Origin: an uncultured Candidatus Saccharibacteria bacterium
GTDB lineage: Bacteria; Patescibacteriota; Minisyncoccia; Sungbacterales; HO2-52-23
Length of the DNA: 64,000 bases
NCBI GenBank assembly: GCA_964585475.1
Contig: CAZPDF010000006.1
Span: forward strand, 8,531-72,530
Direction: 5' to 3'
Positions 5,934 through 47,865 of this stretch are shown piece after piece; within the stretch, counting starts at the first letter, position 1; each line of letters opens with the position of its first letter. Under the pieces are notes generated by a model. It was not told the origin of the DNA. It did not search any database and saw only the letters and a program-made list of their open reading frames with translations. A program made the position numbers and the translations under genes.

Positions 5934-8396
5934 ATGCCCGACATAGGTAAAATAAAACAGCGGGAAATAGTTGACGAGATGCGCGAATCCTATCTGGATT
6001 ACGCGATGTCGGTCATTATTTCGCGCGCCCTCCCCGATGTCCGAGACGGTCTGAAGCCGGTGCACCGGAGGATTTTATATTCCATGCACGAGATGGGCTT
6101 GGGACACTCTGCCAAACACAGAAAGTCGGCGGCAGTCGTCGGAGATGTCTTGGGGAAATACCATCCGCATGGAGACATAGCGGTCTACGACTCTTTGGTA
6201 CGCATGGCCCAGGATTTTTCTCTGCGGTACCCCTTGATAGACGGGCAGGGAAACTGGGGAAACATAGACGGAGATTCTGCGGCGGCCATGCGTTATACCG
6301 AAAGCCGCATGACGCGCCTGGCCGAGGAAATGCTCGCCGACATCGAAAAAGACACGGTTGATTTTCGGGATAACTACGACGGCACGAGAAAAGAGCCGAT
6401 AGTACTGCCGGCCTCGGTGCCGAACCTCCTTCTTAACGGAACCCTGGGCATTGCCGTCGGCATGGCAACTTCAATTCCGCCGCATAATCTCGGCGAGGTT
6501 GTGGACGGCGTCATATATCTTATTGACCGCCCGAAAGCCACCACCGAGGATCTTATGGAATTGGTCAAGGGTCCGGATTTTCCGACCGGCGGCATTATCT
6601 TTGATGAAAAAGAAATACGCGCATCTTACGCCGCGGGCAGGGGATCGATTTTAAATCGAGGTGTGGCCGAAATCGAGGAAGACGGAAAAGCGGGGCATAA
6701 AATTGTAATTACCGAAATACCTTACCAGGTAAATAAGTCAGGACTCCTTGAAGTCATGGCAGCCATCGTGCATGAAAAACGAGTAGAGGGAATAAAAGAT
6801 ATACGAGACGAATCGGATAAAGATGGCTTAAGAATTGTGGTAGAACTTAAATCAGATGCCCATCCCCAGAAAGTTTTAAATAATCTCTACAATCACACCG
6901 ACCTTGAAAAAAACTTCCATCTAAATATGCTGGCGCTAGTGGAGGGACTCCAGCCGCAGGTGCTCTCTTTAAAAGAGGTACTGGAAGAATTTCTCAAACA
7001 TAGGGTGGTGGTTGTTACTCGCCGAGCGAAATTTGATCTGGCCAAAGCTCGCGAGCGGATTCATATTCTCGAGGGCCTGAAGAAAGCGCTGGACCACATT
7101 GACCGGGTGATTGAGACGATTAAGAAATCGCTGGACCGCGAGGAGGCGCACGCGAACTTGATGAAAAAATTCGGGCTCACCCAAATACAAGCCACGGCCA
7201 TACTGGAGATGCGATTGCAGACCCTGGCCGGCCTGGAGCGCCAAAAGATTGAGGACGAGCTCAAAGAAAAAACGGCGCTCGCCAGGCAGCTTGATTCTTT
7301 GCTCAAAGATCCTAAAAAAATTACGGAAGTTATCCGGAAAGAACTGCTTGAAATGAAAGATAAATACGGGGATCTGCGTAAAACAAAAATAGTAAAAAGC
7401 TCCCCCAAAGAATTTTCCGATGAGGACCTCATACCAGAAGAAGAGGTAATGGTGATGTTGACCCGCGGCGGATATATCAAACGGATTAAGCCCGAGAACT
7501 ACCGCATGCAGAAACGCGGCGGAAAAGGGTTAATCGGGATCGAAACCAAAGAAGAAGATATGGTGGAGCATCTTCTTACTTGCAATACCCATGCGAGTCT
7601 CCTTTTTTTCACTAACTTCGGGAAGATCTATCAAGTACGCGTCTATGAAATTCCAGAAGGATCGCGGGTGGCGAAGGGCAAAGCCATTTTCAATTTCCTT
7701 TCGCTTTCAAGCCAAGAGCAGGTAACCTCGTGTCTCGCCGTGGCCAAAGGTAAAAAAGAAAAGTCCAGGGAGACGGGCGAAAAACAATACGCTGTGATGG
7801 TTACCAAAAACGGCATAATCAAAAAGGTGGATGCCGTTTCTTTTGAAAATGTGCGCCGATCCGGTCTCATCGCCCTGACTCTCAAAAAAGGAGACGAGCT
7901 CCGTTGGGCCAAACTGACCAAGGGCAGGGACGAGCTTATCCTGGTTACCAAAAAGGCACAGGCCATTCACTTTTCGGAAGCCGACGTGCGGCCAATGGGT
8001 CGGCAGGCGGCTGGGGTGCGCTCGATTCGACTACGAAGCGGGGACGAAGTGGTGGGGATGGACGTGATTAGTAACCAATTACCAATTACCAGTAACTCAA
8101 AGTTACTGGTGGTGATGGAAAACGGATACGGCAAAGAGACGCTTCTTAAACACTACAAAAAACAGCGCAGAGGCGGCTCGGGCATCAAGACCGCGAAAAT
8201 AACTACCAAGACCGGAAATGTCATAGGAACCAGAATCATCGGCGAAGAAGAATCGGAACTCATAGCGATATCGCGGAAGGGTCAGGTTATCCGCACCACT
8301 CTTTCCGCCATCCCGGTTTTGGGACGCGCCACCCAAGGAGTAAGGATTATGAGAATGGATTCGGGAGACGCGGTAGCTTCGATTACAACTTTTTAG
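5934..8396 (+). CDS. gyrA: DNA gyrase subunit A
   Basis: N-terminal [42 protein letters not shown] and the AAMRYTE active-site region with catalytic Tyr; C-terminal beta-pinwheel repeats. Confidence 0.92.
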
Positions 8397-41240: not shown

Positions 41241-42845
41241 GTGAAATCTGATTTATCTTTATACCGCCTGCTTGAAATTTTTCCCGGGGCCATCGCCTGG
41301 GCAACGCTTTTCGGAATGGTAGTTGTCTCCTGGAGAGCACCGATTGCGGCAAGTTTTTTTATAATAGCATTCGATCTTTATTGGCTGCTGAAAACCATCT
41401 TTTTTACCTCGCATATCGTCGCCTCTTACCGGAAGATGCGGGAAAATTTAAAAATTGATTGGATGGGAAGACTGCGTGAAGTATCGGAGGATACTAATGG
41501 TAAAGTTCTCGACAAGCTCGAACAATACTCTTCGAGCGAGCCCTTCGACTCCGCTCAGGATAAACTTCGCGAGTCGAGAAGCTACAATTGGCAGGACCTT
41601 TATCATCTTATTATTCTTCCGGCGTATCAGGAGCCGTACGAGGTACTGCGGGCGTCTCTCCTGGCGATAAAAAACTCCAGCTGGCCGAAAGACCGGATGA
41701 TCGTGGTTTTGGGAATTGAAGAGCGCGGCGGAGAAGAGGATCAAATTGCGGCGGAAAAAATTAAACAGGAATTCGGATCCAATTTCGCGAAATTTCTAGT
41801 AACGGTGCACCCCGCCGGGCTTCCCGGAGAAATTCCGGGAAAAGGATCCAATGCAACCTGGGCTGCCAAAGCCGCGAAAAAAATTATTGATGATCTCCCG
41901 ATTCCGTATGAACGCGTAATCGTCTCCTCCCTGGATTCCGATACCAGGGTTTACCCGGATTATTTTGCCATTGTCGCGTATCACTACTTAACCGAGTCGG
42001 GTCCCCTTCAGGCCTCCTATCAACCCATTCCGGTTTATCACAATAATATCTGGGATGCTCCGGCAATATCGCGCGTGGTGTCCACGTCGGACACTTTCTG
42101 GCAAATGACCCAACAGTCGAGACCCGAGCGGCTCGAAACCTTCTCTTCGCATTCGATGCCGTTTAAATCATTGGTGGAGGTTGGATTTTGGCAGACCGAT
42201 ATAGTTTCTGAGGATTCTCGAATTTTCTGGCAATGCCTGCTGTATTATAACGGCGATTGGCGGGTGGTGCCGCTTTATTACCCGGTATCCATGGATGCCA
42301 ATCTTGCGCCGTCGTTTTGGCAGACTGCCAAAAATATTTATCGCCAGCACCGCCGTTGGGCTTGGGGAGTCGAAAATATACCCTACATGCTCTACGGCTT
42401 CTTCAAAAATAAATTTATTCCCTTAAGGAAAAAGCTTTTCTATGCATCTGATAAAATAGAGGGTTTCTGGTCGCTATCGACGAATGCCCTCCTTATTCTT
42501 TTTTTAGGATGGCTGCCGCCTCTTTTGGGGGGCGACGTATTCTCAACCACCGTCCTCGCGCATAATCTTCCGCGTATCACCCAGATTCTTCTGACGCTGG
42601 CGATGGTGGGACTTGCTTCGGCCGCAGTAATTTCTTTGGCCCTCCTCCCCACGAGGCCCAAGAAAAAACCTTATCACTGGAAGTGGTGGCTGGTGCTTGA
42701 GTGGCTTACGATCGTCGTAACCGGGACAATTTTTGGCGCAATCCCCGGACTTGAGGCGCAAACCCGTCTCATGCTAGGAAAAAAACTTGGATTTTGGAGA
42801 ACGCCCAAAGTGAGAAAATCCGAAATCCCAATCTCTAAATTCTAA
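41241..42845 (+). CDS. Membrane-bound family-2-like glycosyltransferase
   Basis: N- and C-terminal TM helices around a cytoplasmic domain with DSD (DxD) and a QxxRW-like region (QHRRWAWG), as in processive GT2 synthases. Confidence 0.5.
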   Translation: MKSDLSLYRLLEIFPGAIAWATLFGMVVVSWRAPIAASFFIIAFDLYWLLKTIFFTSHIVASYRKMRENLKIDWMGRLREVSEDTNGKVLDKLEQYSSSEPFDSAQDKLRESRSYNWQDLYHLIILPAYQEPYEVLRASLLAIKNSSWPKDRMIVVLGIEERGGEEDQIAAEKIKQEFGSNFAKFLVTVHPAGLPGEIPGKGSNATWAAKAAKKIIDDLPIPYERVIVSSLDSDTRVYPDYFAIVAYHYLTESGPLQASYQPIPVYHNNIWDAPAISRVVSTSDTFWQMTQQSRPERLETFSSHSMPFKSLVEVGFWQTDIVSEDSRIFWQCLLYYNGDWRVVPLYYPVSMDANLAPSFWQTAKNIYRQHRRWAWGVENIPYMLYGFFKNKFIPLRKKLFYASDKIEGFWSLSTNALLILFLGWLPPLLGGDVFSTTVLAHNLPRITQILLTLAMVGLASAAVISLALLPTRPKKKPYHWKWWLVLEWLTIVVTGTIFGAIPGLEAQTRLMLGKKLGFWRTPKVRKSEIPISKF

Positions 42846-43206: not shown

Positions 43207-45771
43207 TTATTCAAAGTGTATTTCTCTCTCCATTTTTTCCAGCCGTTCTTTGAGTAAGGGATAAAGCCTAAGATCTGGGCTTTTTTGGATAAGTTCGATC
43301 GCCTCTCGTCTTACCTCGCGCACCAGCTTTACGTCCGTGACGGCCTCGATCACCGCATCCGGAACCCCCCATTGCCTTTGTCCGAAAAGGTCCCCCGGGC
43401 CTCGTATTTCAAGGTCTTTTTCCGCAAGTTCAAACCCGTTTTTTGCTTCAACCACCGCGCGAAGGCGGCGAGTTACCATGCCGTCCTCGCTCGGGAAAAG
43501 AAAACAGTACGACTGGTCGGCACCCCTCCCCACTCTTCCGCGGAATTGATGCAGAGTCGCAAGGCCGAATCTTTCTGCGCCCTCGATCATCATTATGGTG
43601 GCGTTCGGATTATCAATGCCTACTTCCACCACCGAAGTTGATACGAGAATTTGGATTTCTTCGTTTTTAAACTTTTTCATTACCGCTTCTTTCTCCTTGG
43701 ATTTTAATTTTCCGTGTAGCATCCCCACACTTAAATCTCTGAATATCTCGTCTTTCAGTTTTTTATATTCCTCTTTCACGGCTTTCACCTCGGCAAGCAG
43801 TAGCTTTGGTTGCGTCGTACCTGTCGTTTGTTGCTTGCCCACTCCGCTCTCGCTTGAGCGAGGCGAGTCGTTTGTCGCTAACTCTATTCGCGGACAAATG
43901 ACAAATGCCTGTCTTCCTCTCCCCACCTCCTCCCTAATAAATTGATACGCCTCGCCCCGTCTAGTTGGTTCTACAATTTTCGTAATGATTTCTTTTCTGG
44001 ATTTTGGCATCTCATCAAGGATGGAAAGGTCAAGGTCGCCGTAGACGGTAAGCGCCAAGGTGCGGGGAATCGGAGTCGCGCTCATGCTCAAAAAATGAGG
44101 CATGAGCGCCGCGGACTGACGCGGACTTGATTCCTCAAGCGCGGACCTACGCTGACTACGCGCTGTATCATATACAATTCTTTTTATCTCAGCTCCTTGA
44201 GGACCGAAGTTAACCAGTAGGGCTACTTTATATTCTGAACCCTTTACATAAGTCCATAGTTGCTTTTTTTCTGTAGTGCCTATAAAAGGAAGTGCTTTGA
44301 GTTCTATAATTACTTTGTCGTCAACAATAAAGTCCGGTTGATATATTCCAACTTTTTTACCTCCAAAAGTAACAGTTAGTGGTTTGCCTTCAACAAAATT
44401 TAAGCCGGCCGTCCTGAAAGCTTCTGCCAACGCCTTTTGATACACCGACTCTTTATGCCCGAATCCTATTTGATCTGTAACTTTAAAAACGCACCCCCGG
44501 ATTTTATAGGTGACATCCTCGTATAAAAGTTTTCCCGATTCCGCGTTAGTCCGCGTTATATTCTCTGTCCGCGCCTGTCCGCGAACCAGCGCCATGCGTT
44601 GGTTGACTCCAAATCGATGTTGTTCGTCCACCACGACAAGTCCGAGATCTGGAATTTTAAACCTTTCCTGTATTAGCGCATGCGTGCCAACGATAATATC
44701 GGGGTCGTGCGCAATCTTTTTTTCCGCGCCGAGTGCTAAACCCACTTTTATTCCGAAAGTCGCAAGCAATTTTTCAATCGTTTCATAGTGCTGCCTCGCC
44801 AAGATCTCGGTTGGCGCCATGAAGGCTACCCTGTATCCGGCTTTTATGGCCAGAAGTGAGGCGGCTGCTGCAACCACTGTTTTGCCGGACCCCACATCTC
44901 CTTCCAGGAGCCGGTTCATGGGTTTGGGTTTTGAAATATCCTGCGCGATTTCCCAGATGGAACGGCGTTGGGCGCTGGTGAGTTCGTAAGGCAGCGAGCG
45001 CACGAACTCTTTGAGGAGGGGAACCATCGCAGGAATTTCGGGCGCCTGATACTGCTTGAGTGTCAGGCGCGCCTTTAGAGCCCTCAGCTGTATGAGAAGG
45101 AGTGTCTCGAAATTGAAACGGCGGCGCGCTCGCTCCGCCTCCGATTTGTTTTTGGGGAAATGAATTGCGCCGAGCGCGTCTTGAAGGTTGGGCAGGAGAT
45201 ATTTATGACGCGTTTCCGAAGGCAAAGGGTCGGAGAGTTTCGACTTTAGCTCAATAAACGATTTTATAAGGAAGCGGAGCCAGCGTGAAGAAATTCCAGA
45301 AGTTTCCGGATAAATTGCGACGAGCCCCCCTGTGTGTATGTTGGTTACTGGTAACTGGTTACTGGCTATTTTCTCATATGCCGGATTCTGCAGATAAAGT
45401 CCTCCGGTTCCCGTAGCTGTTTTTCCGGACATACTCACCGTATCCCCCGCCTTTAAATTCCGCAGTAAAAACGGCTGGTTAAACCAAAGTGCTTTTATTG
45501 CTCCGGTTCCATCCTCAATTTTGGCCTCGGTAAGAAACATACGCTTTCGCAGGGTTCTGCGGCCGGAAATAGTTTTTATTTTCCCCATGATTGTTACGGT
45601 CTCGCCAAGCAAGAGATCGCGTATGGCCTTTCTATTTGAAAAATCTTCGTAGCGCGTGGGGAAATGGAAGAGCAAATCCCGAATGGTTTTTATGCCAAGG
45701 CGTTTCAGGGGCGGTACGATCCGCCGGCTTATTTTGGGGACGTTTTCTATCGGGGTACTCAAGGAAATCAT
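43207..45771 (-). CDS. recG: ATP-dependent DNA helicase RecG with an in-frame ~165-aa GxxExxY-domain insertion between helicase motifs II and III (the ORF extends to 45870; start at 45771 has a GGAGGG RBS)
   Basis: Wedge domain, Walker A GDVGSGKT, motif II VVDEQHRFGV, motif III SATPIPRT, motif VI QLHQFRGRVGRG. The insertion contains GFGHKESVYQKALAEAF...YQPDFIVDDKVIIELKAL, matching the GxxExxY protein family signature. Confidence 0.85.
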   Translation of the reverse strand: MISLSTPIENVPKISRRIVPPLKRLGIKTIRDLLFHFPTRYEDFSNRKAIRDLLLGETVTIMGKIKTISGRRTLRKRMFLTEAKIEDGTGAIKALWFNQPFLLRNLKAGDTVSMSGKTATGTGGLYLQNPAYEKIASNQLPVTNIHTGGLVAIYPETSGISSRWLRFLIKSFIELKSKLSDPLPSETRHKYLLPNLQDALGAIHFPKNKSEAERARRRFNFETLLLIQLRALKARLTLKQYQAPEIPAMVPLLKEFVRSLPYELTSAQRRSIWEIAQDISKPKPMNRLLEGDVGSGKTVVAAAASLLAIKAGYRVAFMAPTEILARQHYETIEKLLATFGIKVGLALGAEKKIAHDPDIIVGTHALIQERFKIPDLGLVVVDEQHRFGVNQRMALVRGQARTENITRTNAESGKLLYEDVTYKIRGCVFKVTDQIGFGHKESVYQKALAEAFRTAGLNFVEGKPLTVTFGGKKVGIYQPDFIVDDKVIIELKALPFIGTTEKKQLWTYVKGSEYKVALLVNFGPQGAEIKRIVYDTARSQRRSALEESSPRQSAALMPHFLSMSATPIPRTLALTVYGDLDLSILDEMPKSRKEIITKIVEPTRRGEAYQFIREEVGRGRQAFVICPRIELATNDSPRSSESGVGKQQTTGTTQPKLLLAEVKAVKEEYKKLKDEIFRDLSVGMLHGKLKSKEKEAVMKKFKNEEIQILVSTSVVEVGIDNPNATIMMIEGAERFGLATLHQFRGRVGRGADQSYCFLFPSEDGMVTRRLRAVVEAKNGFELAEKDLEIRGPGDLFGQRQWGVPDAVIEAVTDVKLVREVRREAIELIQKSPDLRLYPLLKERLEKMEREIHFE

Positions 45772-45904
45772 GTATTCACCCTCCCACCAAAAAGCTACGG
45801 GTGTCAAACCGGGATGAGGTGCATAAGCCCGCAGGACAATAAGCCAAATGTTGCGGCTGTACCCCCTCAAATTTGGTGGGAGGGTTAAGTATATAGCTTA
45901 TTTT

Positions 45905-46944: not shown

Positions 46945-47865
46945 TTAATGAATTGTACTGTCGAGAAGTATGCCGTCCGCCCAATAGAATCCAGTTTCGC
47001 CGGAAGGGAGAATGTCGTACGTATAACCTTTTTGATAAGATACCATCTCGGCAGTTATTACACGGCCTCCATCCATAAGGTCTCCAACAGAAAGATCGCC
47101 CATAATTCGTCCGTCTCCGATTGGATGCCCGGATGAAGCGAAAATTTCTCGTCCGTCAGCCAGAAGCAGATGGATTACCTCATGAGTGGATGGTACGGGA
47201 GTTTTGGCGGTTTCAACAACGAAGGCAGAAATACGTTCACCCAAATTATTGACCGTCCAAATCGCCATCCCTTTTTGCAAATGTTCTACAGGAATAGCAC
47301 CCGAGGGCGTATCAATCAATGTATTTTCTGTAAGACATATCGGGCAGGGCCGGTTAAAATCGGTTTTCTTTATAAACACGGCAGTATTTCCTTCGATGCG
47401 AGTGAGTGTCAGCGTTATAGTACAGCCGTTACTTACGATTTCTCCGATACGTAAAGTCAAGGGATGCCCTTGGCCAGTCACTACAGGATATTCCCAAAAA
47501 TTCAGGCCCGTGACGCGGTCAGTATAAATTTTCTCCAACAAGAAAGAACTCTCTCGTTGCCCTTCCCGCAGAGATATTTGTTCTCCATCCGGTTTCGGTA
47601 AAGGCGCAGGACCCGGCCTTGGAACGGGTATAGGAGCCGGGGCCGGAGTGGGAGGCGAGGTTGCGGGACATTCCGCAAATTCACAATTGGGGCCGGTACG
47701 GCTGACATAACTTCCGTCGGGGCACTGCCGTGTTTCTTGAGTGCAGGCCTTCGGAAGCGGCGGAGATTTTTTGAACAAAATTAAATATCCTGCTGCTCCG
47801 GCAAATATAACAATAAGGATGACAACCAGTATATTTGTAAATCCTTTTTGCTGATCCTCGTTCAT
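46945..47865 (-). CDS. Secreted/membrane-anchored protein with Pro-rich linker and C-terminal Hint (bacterial intein-like, BIL) domain
   Basis: N-terminal TM; PTPAPAPIPVPRPGPAPLP linker; CLTENTLIDTPSGAIPVEHL (Hint block A: C-L-x-x-D/N-T); C-terminus ...DSTIH. Confidence 0.5.
   Translation of the reverse strand: MNEDQQKGFTNILVVILIVIFAGAAGYLILFKKSPPLPKACTQETRQCPDGSYVSRTGPNCEFAECPATSPPTPAPAPIPVPRPGPAPLPKPDGEQISLREGQRESSFLLEKIYTDRVTGLNFWEYPVVTGQGHPLTLRIGEIVSNGCTITLTLTRIEGNTAVFIKKTDFNRPCPICLTENTLIDTPSGAIPVEHLQKGMAIWTVNNLGERISAFVVETAKTPVPSTHEVIHLLLADGREIFASSGHPIGDGRIMGDLSVGDLMDGGRVITAEMVSYQKGYTYDILPSGETGFYWADGILLDSTIH

What the first reader, a model, noticed from the sequence alone, without database searches (positions are those of the whole stretch)
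44090..44590. recG carries an in-frame GxxExxY-domain insertion flanked by inverted triplets of the heptamer CGCGGAC
Seen in sequence: helicase motif II (VVDEQHRFGV) and motif III (SATPIPRT) are separated by ~170 residues, against ~12 in typical RecG. The insert contains GFGHKESVYQKALAEAF…YQPDFIVDDKVIIELKAL. This matches the GxxExxY protein family, small putative PD-(D/E)xK-like proteins usually free-standing or in rRNA intervening sequences.

On the coding (minus) strand, the DNA immediately 5′ of the insert has three CGCGGAC heptamers and the 3′ side has three GTCCGCG heptamers. They read as the peptides RGQARTENITRTNAES and ARSQRRSALEESSPRQSAA.

This looks like an in-frame mobile domain cassette (intein-less 'insertion domain') with terminal inverted repeats, sitting in the motor core of a housekeeping helicase.
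Basis: partly seen in the sequence, partly recalled or inferred. Interest (0 to 1): 0.7.

Follow-up and report, generated by a model that had tools for sequence, protein, structure and literature searches.

The report
Nuclease gene cassette translated inside recG
The recG helicase gene carries, in frame, a complete small nuclease gene bracketed by mirror-image arrays of the 7-base unit CGCGGAC. The same cassette turns up inside at least 14 unrelated protein families of ultra-small (CPR) bacteria, so it looks like an undescribed selfish DNA element that survives by being translated as an extra protein domain.

Summary
recG (43207-45771, minus strand) carries a 474-bp in-frame insert (44110-44583) between helicase motifs II and III. 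The insert is four CGCGGAC-type heptamers, a full-length GxxExxY / PD-(D/E)xK nuclease domain, then four inverted heptamers.

- **Same cassette, many hosts.** It occurs, with the same heptamers at DNA level, in LepA, GatB, LeuRS, RtcB, DHFR, transketolase, asparagine synthase, glycosyltransferases and other proteins. Core phylogeny mixes host genes.
- **All stages at the recG site.** Orthologues show empty loops, solo arrays, core-less mini elements, full cassettes and one unrelated cassette.
- **Core-less arrays elsewhere.** They sit in frame in mnmA, uvrB, ileS and valS, a one-sided array sits in leuS, and arrays also lie inside 16S/23S rRNA genes.
- **Family-wide arrays.** 58% of GxxExxY genes have flanking inverted short-unit arrays, against 1.3% of control positions. 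Unit spacing is about 10 bp and the unit sequence varies with nuclease lineage.
- **Structure.** AlphaFold gives an independent nuclease domain on two disordered linkers that the arrays encode. Catalytic residues are kept.

Mobility and nuclease-array recognition are inferred, not shown. I found no prior description.

The parts
43207..45771 (-). recG gene (854 aa), host of the insert. All helicase motifs are intact.
   Evidence: ORF list. NCBIfam RecG equivalog and Pfam RecG_wedge/DEAD/Helicase_C/RecG_dom3_C. Identical gene call on public contigs. The model matches RecG 1gm5.
44110..44583 (-). Whole cassette: 474 bp, 158 codons, in frame, with no start or stop codon of its own.
   Evidence: Boundaries come from the outermost heptamers and from alignment with empty-site, solo and mini orthologues.
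44539..44583 (-). 5' array: CGCGGAC-agg-CGCGGAC-(11 nt)-CGCGGAC-taa-CGCGGAA. It encodes the linker RGQARTENITRTNAE.
   Evidence: The AF2 low-confidence stretch (pLDDT below 50) at aa 398-412 maps to 44536-44580. The same heptamer is read in two different frames (RG and RT), so the conservation is at the DNA level.
44173..44520 (-). GxxExxY / PD-(D/E)xK nuclease core (aa 418-533). It has GHKESVY, PDF and ELK motifs.
44110..44156 (-). 3' array, read on the coding strand: GTCAGCG-tag-GTCCGCG-(13 nt)-GTCCGCG-tca-GTCCGCG. It encodes the linker SQRRSALEESSPRQS.
   Evidence: The AF2 low-confidence stretch (pLDDT below 50) at aa 537-554 maps to 44110-44163.
44617..44628 (-). Helicase motif II (DEQH), host sequence upstream of the insert.
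   Evidence: Invariant D382 E383 Q384 H385 in the RecG alignment.
44074..44082 (-). Helicase motif III (SAT), host sequence downstream of the insert.
   Evidence: Nearly invariant SMSATPIPRT in the RecG alignment.

Best explanation
The insert is one copy of an apparently undescribed family of selfish DNA cassettes. Each cassette is a GxxExxY-type PD-(D/E)xK nuclease ORF bracketed by inverted arrays of a 6-7-nt unit (here CGCGGAC) repeated about every 10 bp.

In CPR/Patescibacteria the cassette has lost its own start and stop codons. It lives inside host genes in frame and is translated through (strongly supported, though indirectly). The two arrays encode disordered linkers of about 15-19 aa. 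The nuclease folds as an independent domain hanging from a variable loop between helicase motifs II and III, and RecG's motifs stay intact (shown by sequence and model).

Only insertions in permissive loops or interdomain linkers, in an open frame, survive selection.

Inferred, not shown: the nuclease recognises its cognate arrays. Breaks at or near arrays then lead to copying, exchange or loss of the cassette by recombination between array-bearing sites (homing-like gene conversion), or to excision and integration as with a transposon that has multiple subterminal binding sites. Core-less array pairs are non-autonomous derivatives.

At the recG site the element is old. It has been inherited vertically in a large clade and, in the window's clade, gained, lost, decayed or replaced.
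For: **1. Same cassette and same DNA heptamers in other genes.**
- lepA: L001, L002 and L125, L126, L129, L150.
- gatB: L127.
- Pfam on the best database hits adds GT2, GT4/GT1, DHFR, Wzy, LeuRS, RtcB, transketolase, AsnB, P-type ATPase, alpha/beta hydrolase and prepilin.

**2. Cores move between genes.** The NJ tree of cores mixes hosts. GatB_P0214 is nested in a LepA clade, LeuRS sits in the LepA clade, and free-standing and embedded copies are interleaved.

**3. All stages at the recG site.**
- Empty: L206.
- Solo doublet: L203, L204.
- 4+4 mini element: L205.
- Full: WIN, L029, which share the left junction GCGCTGGTT|CGCGGAC.
- The host tree is patchy. WIN is sister to empty P0090, and P0086 is sister to empty P0144.
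- P0115 carries an unrelated GxxExxY core with TACGAAT/TACAAAT arrays at the same site.

**4. Arrays without a core sit in frame in other genes.** Core-less palindromic arrays are in frame in mnmA, uvrB, ileS, valS and lepA, and a one-sided triple array is in frame in leuS. All 5 in-gene arrays from the unbiased DNA scan are open and in frame.

**5. The arrays are a family-wide feature.**
- 58% of 71 GxxExxY loci have inverted 6-mer arrays within 140 bp on both sides, against 1.3% of 229 control positions.
- Spacing peaks at 10-11 bp.
- Unit sequence differs between nuclease lineages.
- A Bacillota locus has a free-standing gene flanked by the same CGCGGAC arrays.

**6. The nuclease looks functional.** Catalytic E, D, E and K are kept in 29/29 RecG cores (one with a conservative E-to-D change) and 6/6 LepA cores.

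**7. Structure.** AF2 gives a confident separate domain, and the linkers with pLDDT below 50 coincide with the arrays.

**8. Composition.** The core has lower GC than the host gene.
Against: - No transposition or homing event has been observed.
- No clear target-site duplication was found.
- No recognised transposase or recombinase is present.
- A large RecG clade carries the insert uniformly, which fits plain vertical inheritance.
- The trees are NJ trees on about 115 columns, so resolution is low.
- Only one copy lies in this 64-kb window, so copy number in this genome is unknown.
- Nuclease activity and array binding are untested.
- Arrays also flank a group I intron (L034) and, in direct orientation, an unrelated Ser_hydrolase domain (L077). 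The arrays may therefore have a life independent of GxxExxY.
Confidence: 0.7

Rival explanations
1. Host-beneficial domain fusion. A PD-(D/E)xK nuclease was recruited once into RecG to make a helicase-nuclease for processing branched DNA. It is simply inherited, and the heptamers are incidental linker-coding sequence.
For: - A deep RecG clade carries the insert uniformly.
- Catalytic residues are conserved in all RecG copies.
- The fold resembles the nuclease modules of Dna2, Cas4 and AddAB.
- Helicase-nuclease fusions are common (own knowledge).
Against: - The same cassette with the same heptamers sits in LepA, GatB, DHFR, RtcB, transketolase, glycosyltransferases and prepilin leaders. None of these acts on DNA.
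- Heptamers are conserved at the nucleotide level in two reading frames.
- Free-standing genes have the same arrays outside the ORF.
- Close RecG relatives lack the insert or keep only arrays.
- Later co-option in RecG is not excluded.
Confidence: 0.1
2. Intervening sequence removed before RecG functions. The paired arrays would form a stem that is cut and religated at the RNA level (rRNA-IVS or bulge-helix-bulge style, possibly by the encoded nuclease plus RtcB), or the insert would be removed from the protein.
For: - The arrays pair heptamer to heptamer and close the insert in the predicted RNA fold (z = -3.7).
- The mini element folds as a hairpin (z = -7.1).
- Arrays occur in rRNA genes, where CPR insertions are reported to be absent from the transcripts (PMC11270868).
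Against: - All embedded copies and all in-gene core-less arrays are in frame and free of stop codons through both arrays. A spliced element would not need this: 5/5 from the unbiased scan gives P <= 0.004 on frame alone.
- There is no Hint domain and no nucleophile at the junctions.
- No Rfam intron match was found.
- The metal-binding D..ExK site is typical of DNA nucleases.
- Middle-base changes in the arrays are not compensatory.
Confidence: 0.05
3. The arrays are the primary, independent repeat family: hairpin or expansion-type palindromes spread by host processes. GxxExxY would be a domesticated structure-specific nuclease that associates with them (as RAYT does with REP), rather than the agent that moves the cassette.
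For: - Arrays exist without any GxxExxY core in rRNA genes, around a group I intron, in intergenic DNA, and as direct repeats around a Ser_hydrolase insert.
- Many more array sites than cores were seen in the rRNA loci.
Against: - The orientation-specific placement of arrays on both sides of 58% of GxxExxY genes argues for one unit.
- So does the variation of repeat unit with nuclease lineage.
- Embedded cores have moved between host genes together with their arrays.
Confidence: 0.15

Closest known systems
Rickettsia palindromic elements (RPE; Ogata et al. 2000, reviewed in PMC10969869)
   Same: Palindromic selfish DNA inserted in frame into unrelated housekeeping genes and translated as extra peptide segments in tolerant loops.
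   Different: - RPEs are about 100-150 bp and encode no enzyme.
- Here the full element carries a complete nuclease domain.
- The ends here are arrays of a 7-nt unit at 10-bp period.
- The lineage (CPR) and the sequences are unrelated.
REP / RAYT (REPtron, REPIN) systems (PMC3333891, PMC3337134)
   Same: An enzyme gene is flanked by inverted copies of the short palindromic repeats that are also dispersed through the genome as non-autonomous units. Repeat sequence tracks enzyme lineage.
   Different: - RAYT is a HUH/Y1 single-strand transposase, whereas this enzyme is a PD-(D/E)xK fold.
- REPs are extragenic single hairpins with a GTAG/CGTC tag, not 10-bp-period heptamer arrays.
- REP/RAYT units are not translated inside host proteins.
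Inteins and homing-endonuclease genes
   Same: A nuclease ORF sits in frame inside conserved housekeeping genes, next to highly conserved motifs. Distribution among orthologues is patchy, and different nuclease lineages occupy the same site.
   Different: - There is no Hint splicing domain and no junction nucleophiles, so the insert apparently stays in the mature protein.
- It sits in variable loops rather than in the conserved motif itself.
- Target range is broad: at least 14 host protein families.
Transposons with multiple subterminal binding sites and their MITEs (Tn7, Mu; Ac/Ds AAACGG hexamers; own knowledge)
   Same: Inverted ends are built from several copies of a short motif. Internally deleted, non-autonomous derivatives keep only the ends.
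   Different: No DDE, serine, tyrosine or HUH transposase is present. No target-site duplication was detected. The only encoded protein is a roughly 120-aa PD-(D/E)xK nuclease.
Cas4 / RecB-like and restriction-endonuclease-like PD-(D/E)xK nucleases
   Different: Sequence identity is 13-16%. The domain has no Fe-S cluster cysteines and no CRISPR context. It is a minimal single domain with the family-specific GxxExxY motif.

Membership tests
RecG helicase | Wedge domain plus SF2 motor with motifs I-VI and the RecG C-terminal domain; passes the equivalog model | tested here: met
   NF008168 gives 753 bits against a cut-off of 718. Pfam hits are RecG_wedge, DEAD, Helicase_C and RecG_dom3_C. Foldseek to 1gm5 gives E 4e-44. 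GSGKT, DEQH and SAT are invariant.
GxxExxY protein (TIGR04256 / Pfam PF13366 PDDEXK_3) | Full-length match above the curated cut-off, and the GxxExxY motif | tested here: met
   TIGR04256 gives 104-108 bits (cut-off 35) over profile 2-116 of 116. PF13366 gives 101-105 bits (cut-off 22). The motif is GHKESVY.
PD-(D/E)xK nuclease superfamily | alpha-beta-beta-beta-alpha-beta core carrying D...(D/E)xK catalytic residues | tested here: met
PD-(D/E)xK nuclease superfamily | Metal-dependent nuclease activity | not testable with these tools
   Needs biochemistry.
Intein | Hint domain with an N-terminal Cys/Ser/Thr, a C-terminal His-Asn, and a +1 nucleophile | tested here: not met
   There is no Hint family hit in RecG. 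The insert starts with RGQ and ends with SAA|LMP.
Group I / II intron or other Rfam RNA | Match to a ribozyme covariance model | tested here: not met
   No Rfam match at E <= 1 in 43900-44800.
Transposon / MITE | Terminal inverted repeats | tested here: met
   4+4 mirrored heptamers. The same architecture is seen in dozens of loci.
Transposon / MITE | Target-site duplication | tested here: inconclusive
   No consistent direct repeat appears at 16 element borders. A possible 6-bp GGCGCT / GGCACT repeat at the recG site is weak.
Transposon / MITE | Non-autonomous, internally deleted derivatives at other sites | tested here: met
   Core-less array pairs lie in mnmA, uvrB, lepA, recG, ileS, valS and rRNA genes.
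Transposon / MITE | Encoded transposase of a recognised class | tested here: not met
   The only Pfam/NCBIfam family in the insert is PF13366/TIGR04256.
Transposon / MITE | Multiple copies per genome and observed movement | not testable with these tools
   Only 64 kb of this genome is available, with one copy in it. LepA contigs often end at the cassette, which hints at assembly breaks on a repeat.
REP/RAYT (REPtron) | HUH Y1 transposase flanked by its REPs | tested here: not met
   The architecture is analogous, but the enzyme is PD-(D/E)xK, not HUH.
Homing endonuclease gene | Same site in orthologues with patchy presence/absence, and different nuclease lineages at one site | tested here: met
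Homing endonuclease gene | Cleavage of the empty allele at a specific target | not testable with these tools
   Needs biochemistry. The breadth of host genes argues against a single specific target.

The most novel reading that the evidence does not exclude
GxxExxY nucleases with their heptamer arrays would be a new class of mobile element, and its CPR branch would occupy the intein niche without any splicing. The element is expressed by being translated as a domain of the invaded protein. Its DNA ends would serve twice, as recognition sites and as codons for flexible linkers. Its array-only derivatives would seed insertions in proteins and rRNAs, and could mediate insertion of other domains (the Ser_hydrolase in LeuRS is flanked by arrays). 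That would make it a driver of the unusual protein and rRNA insertions of CPR bacteria, and a natural system for in-frame domain insertion.
Probability: 0.4. Interest if true: 0.9.

Novelty: new variant of a known kind. Interest (0 to 1): 0.8.

Why it matters
- **A context for an orphan family.** GxxExxY / PF13366 has 6,695 representative clusters at E <= 1e-3 in this search and no assigned function. This work gives it a genomic context and a testable role: the nuclease of an array-flanked selfish element.
- **Unexplained CPR insertions.** It explains part of the insertions seen in CPR proteins and links them to repeat arrays inside CPR rRNA genes.
- **A third way to live inside an essential gene.** Besides splicing out as RNA (introns) or as protein (inteins), an element can stay in as a tolerated, folded extra domain.
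- **Annotation.** Public annotation already mislabels some of these RecG proteins as "GxxExxY protein" (P0086, P0153, P0191).
- **Engineering.** The cassettes mark permissive insertion sites in conserved enzymes, and could inspire tools for in-frame domain insertion.

Tried and rejected
- **PDB sequence search of the core.** No homologue was found.
- **Rfam on the insert.** No match.
- **Target-site duplications.** Searched at 16 element borders; nothing consistent.
- **RNA-level covariation in the arrays.** Changes at the middle base are not compensatory. They are mostly G-to-A on the 5' side and C-to-T on the 3' side (the transitions expected of CpG decay), with some transversions. This gives no support for a selected RNA helix.
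- **The extra GTCCGCG at 43889-43895.** I first took it for a remnant. It is part of the conserved host motif ICPRIE.
- **The genome-wide DNA pattern scan.** Most hits were in high-GC genomes (Streptomyces and others), and I treated these as probable chance matches without inspecting them. Only the low-GC CPR, DPANN and Bacillota loci were informative.
- **GxxExxY ORFs in the two rRNA loci.** None were present.
- **Other copies in the window.** Only the recG cassette was found.
- **Literature.** Searches for GxxExxY, PDDEXK_3, CPR in-frame palindromes and Patescibacteria MITEs found nothing on this element.
- **Not attempted.** dN/dS, because the closest pair with DNA is only 71% identical at the protein level.
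Full report
**Observation**

The ORF 43207-45870 on the minus strand is recG. The true start is the ATG at 45771, giving 854 aa. Orthologues start there, and the same 854-aa gene call exists on two public metagenome contigs.

The protein passes the NCBIfam RecG equivalog. It has RecG_wedge, DEAD, Helicase_C and RecG_dom3_C domains. Between VVDEQHRFGV (motif II) and SATPIPRT (motif III) lies a full-length PF13366 / TIGR04256 GxxExxY domain (E about 5e-30, profile 2-116 of 116).

The distance from the end of DEQHRFGV to SATPIPRT is 174 aa. In about 90 insert-less orthologues it is 18-48 aa, mostly 18-30.

On the coding strand the insert starts with CGCGGAC-agg-CGCGGAC-(11 nt)-CGCGGAC-taa-CGCGGAA. 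It ends with GTCAGCG-tag-GTCCGCG-(13 nt)-GTCCGCG-tca-GTCCGCG. That is four units per side in mirror symmetry.

- Six of the 12 exact CGCGGAC copies in the 64-kb window lie here.
- None of 300 Markov-1 simulations reached three copies in 50 bp.
- The same heptamer is read as Arg-Gly in one unit and as Arg-Thr in the next, so what is conserved is DNA, not peptide.
- The insert core has GC of 0.32-0.44, against about 0.5-0.57 for the host gene.

**The cassette is not specific to recG**

A protein search with the insert plus its linkers returned the same cassette, linker peptides included, inside LepA/EF4 of CPR bacteria. It sits between ITIKxQPVRM and LNLIDTPGHVDF.

The DNA of two such loci shows the very same heptamers. 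L001 has CGCGGAC-tga-CGCGGAC-tgaag-CGCGGAC-tga-CGCGGAA before the core and GTCCGCG-type units after it. L002 is similar. L002 also has a second, core-less array pair in frame further down lepA.

A metagenome scan added more lepA and recG copies and a gatB copy. It also found a cassette fused in frame upstream of a prepilin methylation motif.

An exhaustive phmmer search over 1.84 billion representative proteins gave 6,695 hits at E <= 1e-3. Most of the best 45 or so are internal to long proteins. Pfam on 40 of them identified these hosts:

- RecG, LepA and GatB
- GT2 and GT4/GT1 glycosyltransferases
- dihydrofolate reductase
- Wzy-type O-antigen ligase
- LeuRS
- RtcB
- transketolase
- asparagine synthase
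- a P-type ATPase
- an alpha/beta hydrolase
- prepilins

Where Pfam domains flank the insert on both sides, it lies between recognisable domains or motifs. Examples are between the two Rossmann halves of GT4, between Transket_pyr and Transketolase_C, and between GATase and Asn_synthase.

**Evidence for movement**

An NJ tree of the nuclease cores mixes host genes. GatB_P0214 is nested among LepA cores. LeuRS falls in the LepA clade. DHFR, GT2, RtcB and Wzy are interspersed, and free-standing and embedded copies interleave in the deeper branches.

At the recG site itself every stage is present at the DNA level.

| Stage | Locus |
|---|---|
| Empty loop (SQRAALTRKGQSGILPHFL) | L206 |
| Solo doublet CGCGGACnnnCGCGGAC | L203, L204 |
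| 4+4 core-less palindrome | L205 |
| Full cassette | window, L029 |

All non-empty forms share the left junction GCGCTGGTT|CGCGGAC, so these derive from one ancestral insertion that has decayed.

On the RecG host tree a deep clade carries the cassette uniformly, which indicates vertical inheritance. The window's clade is patchy: the window protein is sister to an empty one (P0090), and P0086 is sister to empty P0144. One tight host cluster (P0085, P0087, P0088, P0089, P0115) carries three different core lineages. One of these, P0115, is an unrelated GxxExxY type flanked by TACGAAT/TACAAAT units instead of CGCGGAC.

This points to repeated gain, loss and replacement at a permissive site. The same RecG loop also hosts other, unrelated in-frame repeat peptides.

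**Arrays without cores**

Its low-GC loci were informative.

- **L028.** A 96-bp near-perfect palindrome of 4+4 units lies in frame in mnmA. Its ssDNA hairpin has z = -7.1.
- **Other genes.** Array pairs or arrays lie in frame in uvrB (just before DESH), ileS and valS. In leuS there is a one-sided triple array, also in frame.
- **Reading frame.** All five in-gene arrays from this unbiased scan are open and in frame. This argues that the host protein is translated through them.

Arrays also lie inside rRNA genes.

- **L034.** This 16S gene spans 3.15 kb and has three array-flanked insertions. One encloses a group I intron.
- **L067.** This 23S gene has several arrays.

A Bacillota MAG (L047) has a free-standing GxxExxY gene flanked by CGCGGAC x3 and GTCCGCG x3 in intergenic DNA, plus solo arrays nearby.

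**A property of the whole family**

Of 71 GxxExxY loci from metagenomes, 58% have some 6-mer present at least twice within 140 bp upstream and its reverse complement at least twice within 140 bp downstream. Only 1.3% of 229 control positions in the same contigs do.

The unit differs between lineages: CGCGGAC, CGCAGAT, CACGGAT, CACGAAT, TACGAAT, CACAGAT, CGCGAAT and TACAAA. The architecture is constant, with 3-5 units spaced 10 bp (93 cases), 11 bp (33), 12 bp (15) or 9 bp (11). That spacing is about one helical turn. It is what cooperative binding to one face of duplex DNA would give. In single strands it produces 7-bp helices separated by small internal loops.

**The protein**

E29, D68, E78 and K80 of the core (the E of GxxExxY, the D of PDF, and ExK) are invariant across the family. 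They are kept in 29/29 RecG-embedded cores (one with a conservative E-to-D change) and 6/6 LepA-embedded cores. The active site is therefore under selection even when embedded.

AlphaFold2 with a 60-sequence alignment gives mean pLDDT 83. The RecG core and the inserted domain (aa 418-533) are confident. The stretches with pLDDT below 50 are aa 398-412 and 537-554, which are the peptides encoded by the two arrays.

**Mechanism**

Shown directly or strongly supported:

- the element's anatomy
- its presence in many genes
- its decay series
- its in-frame, stop-free state
- conservation of the catalytic site
- the link between nuclease lineage and repeat unit

Inferred:

- The nuclease binds its arrays.
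- Breaks at arrays promote copying, exchange or loss of the cassette by recombination. The conserved motifs that flank the recG, lepA, gatB and uvrB sites would provide homology for transfer between lineages.
- Alternatively the element excises and integrates like a transposon with several subterminal binding sites.
- Array-only units are non-autonomous derivatives.
- Selection then retains only insertions that are in frame, free of stop codons and located in tolerant loops.

I put about 0.7 on the general reading (a selfish, evolutionarily mobile cassette that is translated through). I put about 0.4 on the specific claim that the nuclease recognises the arrays and drives the movement.

**Rivals**

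- **A dedicated RecG-nuclease fusion.** The non-DNA host proteins and the arrays around free-standing genes contradict it, though secondary co-option in RecG is not excluded.
- **Removal at the RNA or protein level.** The universal in-frame, stop-free state of full and core-less elements contradicts it, as does the absence of splicing signatures.
- **Arrays as the primary repeat with GxxExxY as a domesticated partner (RAYT-like).** This remains possible.

**Comparison with known systems and novelty**

The element works most like three known things combined:

- Rickettsia palindromic elements, which are in-frame selfish palindromes (PMC10969869)
- REP/RAYT REPtrons, in which an enzyme gene is flanked by its own dispersed repeats (PMC3333891, PMC3337134)
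- homing-endonuclease or intein insertions in housekeeping genes

It is a member of none of them. It has no HUH transposase, no Hint domain and no ribozyme, and it carries an enzyme, which RPEs lack.

Full-text searches found no functional work on GxxExxY / PF13366. The family is listed as function unknown in PMC3424549. A 2024 survey of CPR rRNA insertions does not contain the words repeat, palindrome or PDDEXK. No paper was found on in-frame palindromic or nuclease insertions in CPR proteins.

I therefore rate it a new variant of known kinds of selfish element. There is a substantial chance that it deserves to be treated as a class of its own.

Noticed in passing
window 41520-41600 (+), inside the glycosyltransferase ORF 41241-42845: An in-frame segment encoding ...SSSEPFDSAQDKLRESRS... 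has palindromic DNA (cttcgactc...gagtcgagaag). It looks like another, different in-frame palindromic repeat. The ORF matches Glyco_trans_2_3. DNA.
   Followed up: partly
window 43816-43881 (-), RecG aa 631-652: A second stretch with pLDDT below 50 (ATNDSPRSSESGVGKQQTTGTTQPK) lies in a loop where orthologues carry other in-frame repeats. L124 has a heptamer-array mini element there, and L123 and L128 have other repeat types.
   Followed up: partly
window 46948-47865 (-): A 306-aa protein has an N-terminal membrane anchor, a Pro-rich linker and a C-terminal Hint_2 domain (E 4e-7).
   Followed up: partly
window 44078-44109: A perfect 10-bp inverted repeat (GCGCTCATGC / GCATGAGCGC, 12-nt loop) lies immediately outside the 3' array. 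It is built partly from the conserved SMSAT codons. It is absent from the orthologue L029.
   Followed up: no
L034 4181-7331 (-), Jorgensenbacteria 16S rRNA gene: The 16S gene spans 3.15 kb and has three heptamer-array-flanked insertions. One lies between GGATTAGATAC and CCTTGTAGTCC and encloses a group I intron (6074-6283). Each array is bordered by a small tetraloop hairpin.
   Followed up: partly
L067 1-1322 (+), Paceibacterota 23S rRNA gene: Heptamer arrays (CGCGGAC, CGCGGAT and CGCAGAT types) lie at 150-190, 367-405, about 820-880 and 1120-1200, inside about 870 bp of extra sequence in domain V/VI.
   Followed up: partly
L077 1711-4962 (-), LeuRS of a MAG labelled Nanoarchaeota: A whole Ser_hydrolase domain inserted in LeuRS is flanked by CGCGGAT x3 on its 5' side and CGCGGAC x3 on its 3' side. 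Both are in the same (direct) orientation. A CACAGAT x3 array lies elsewhere in the gene.
   Followed up: partly
L033 (IleRS), L037 (ValRS), P0218 (LeuRS): CPR aminoacyl-tRNA synthetases carry complete foreign enzyme domains in frame. His_Phos_1 is in IleRS and ValRS, and NUDIX plus a GxxExxY cassette are in a LeuRS.
   Followed up: no
L135 3929-4990 and P0258: The GxxExxY cassette recurs fused in frame just upstream of a prepilin N-methylation motif, that is, in the leader that prepilin peptidase would cut off.
   Followed up: no
RecG motif II-III loop in orthologues P0109, P0130, P0132, P0134, P0169, P0171, P0202, P0203: Other, unrelated in-frame repeat peptides occupy the same loop (...GIKNQE...FLIP......RQETSDRRQEKS...). 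The loop is a general hotspot for insertions.
   Followed up: no
P0086, P0153, P0191 (public records): Full-length RecG proteins that carry the cassette are named 'GxxExxY protein' in NCBI annotation. The housekeeping gene is mislabelled.
   Followed up: no
P0001-P0005, P0017, P0058, P0063; L001, L002: Many LepA copies are partial proteins (163-278 aa). L001's contig ends right after the cassette, which hints that assemblies break on a multi-copy repeat. L002 also has an in-frame TAA in lepA on a 2x-coverage contig, probably a sequencing error.
   Followed up: no
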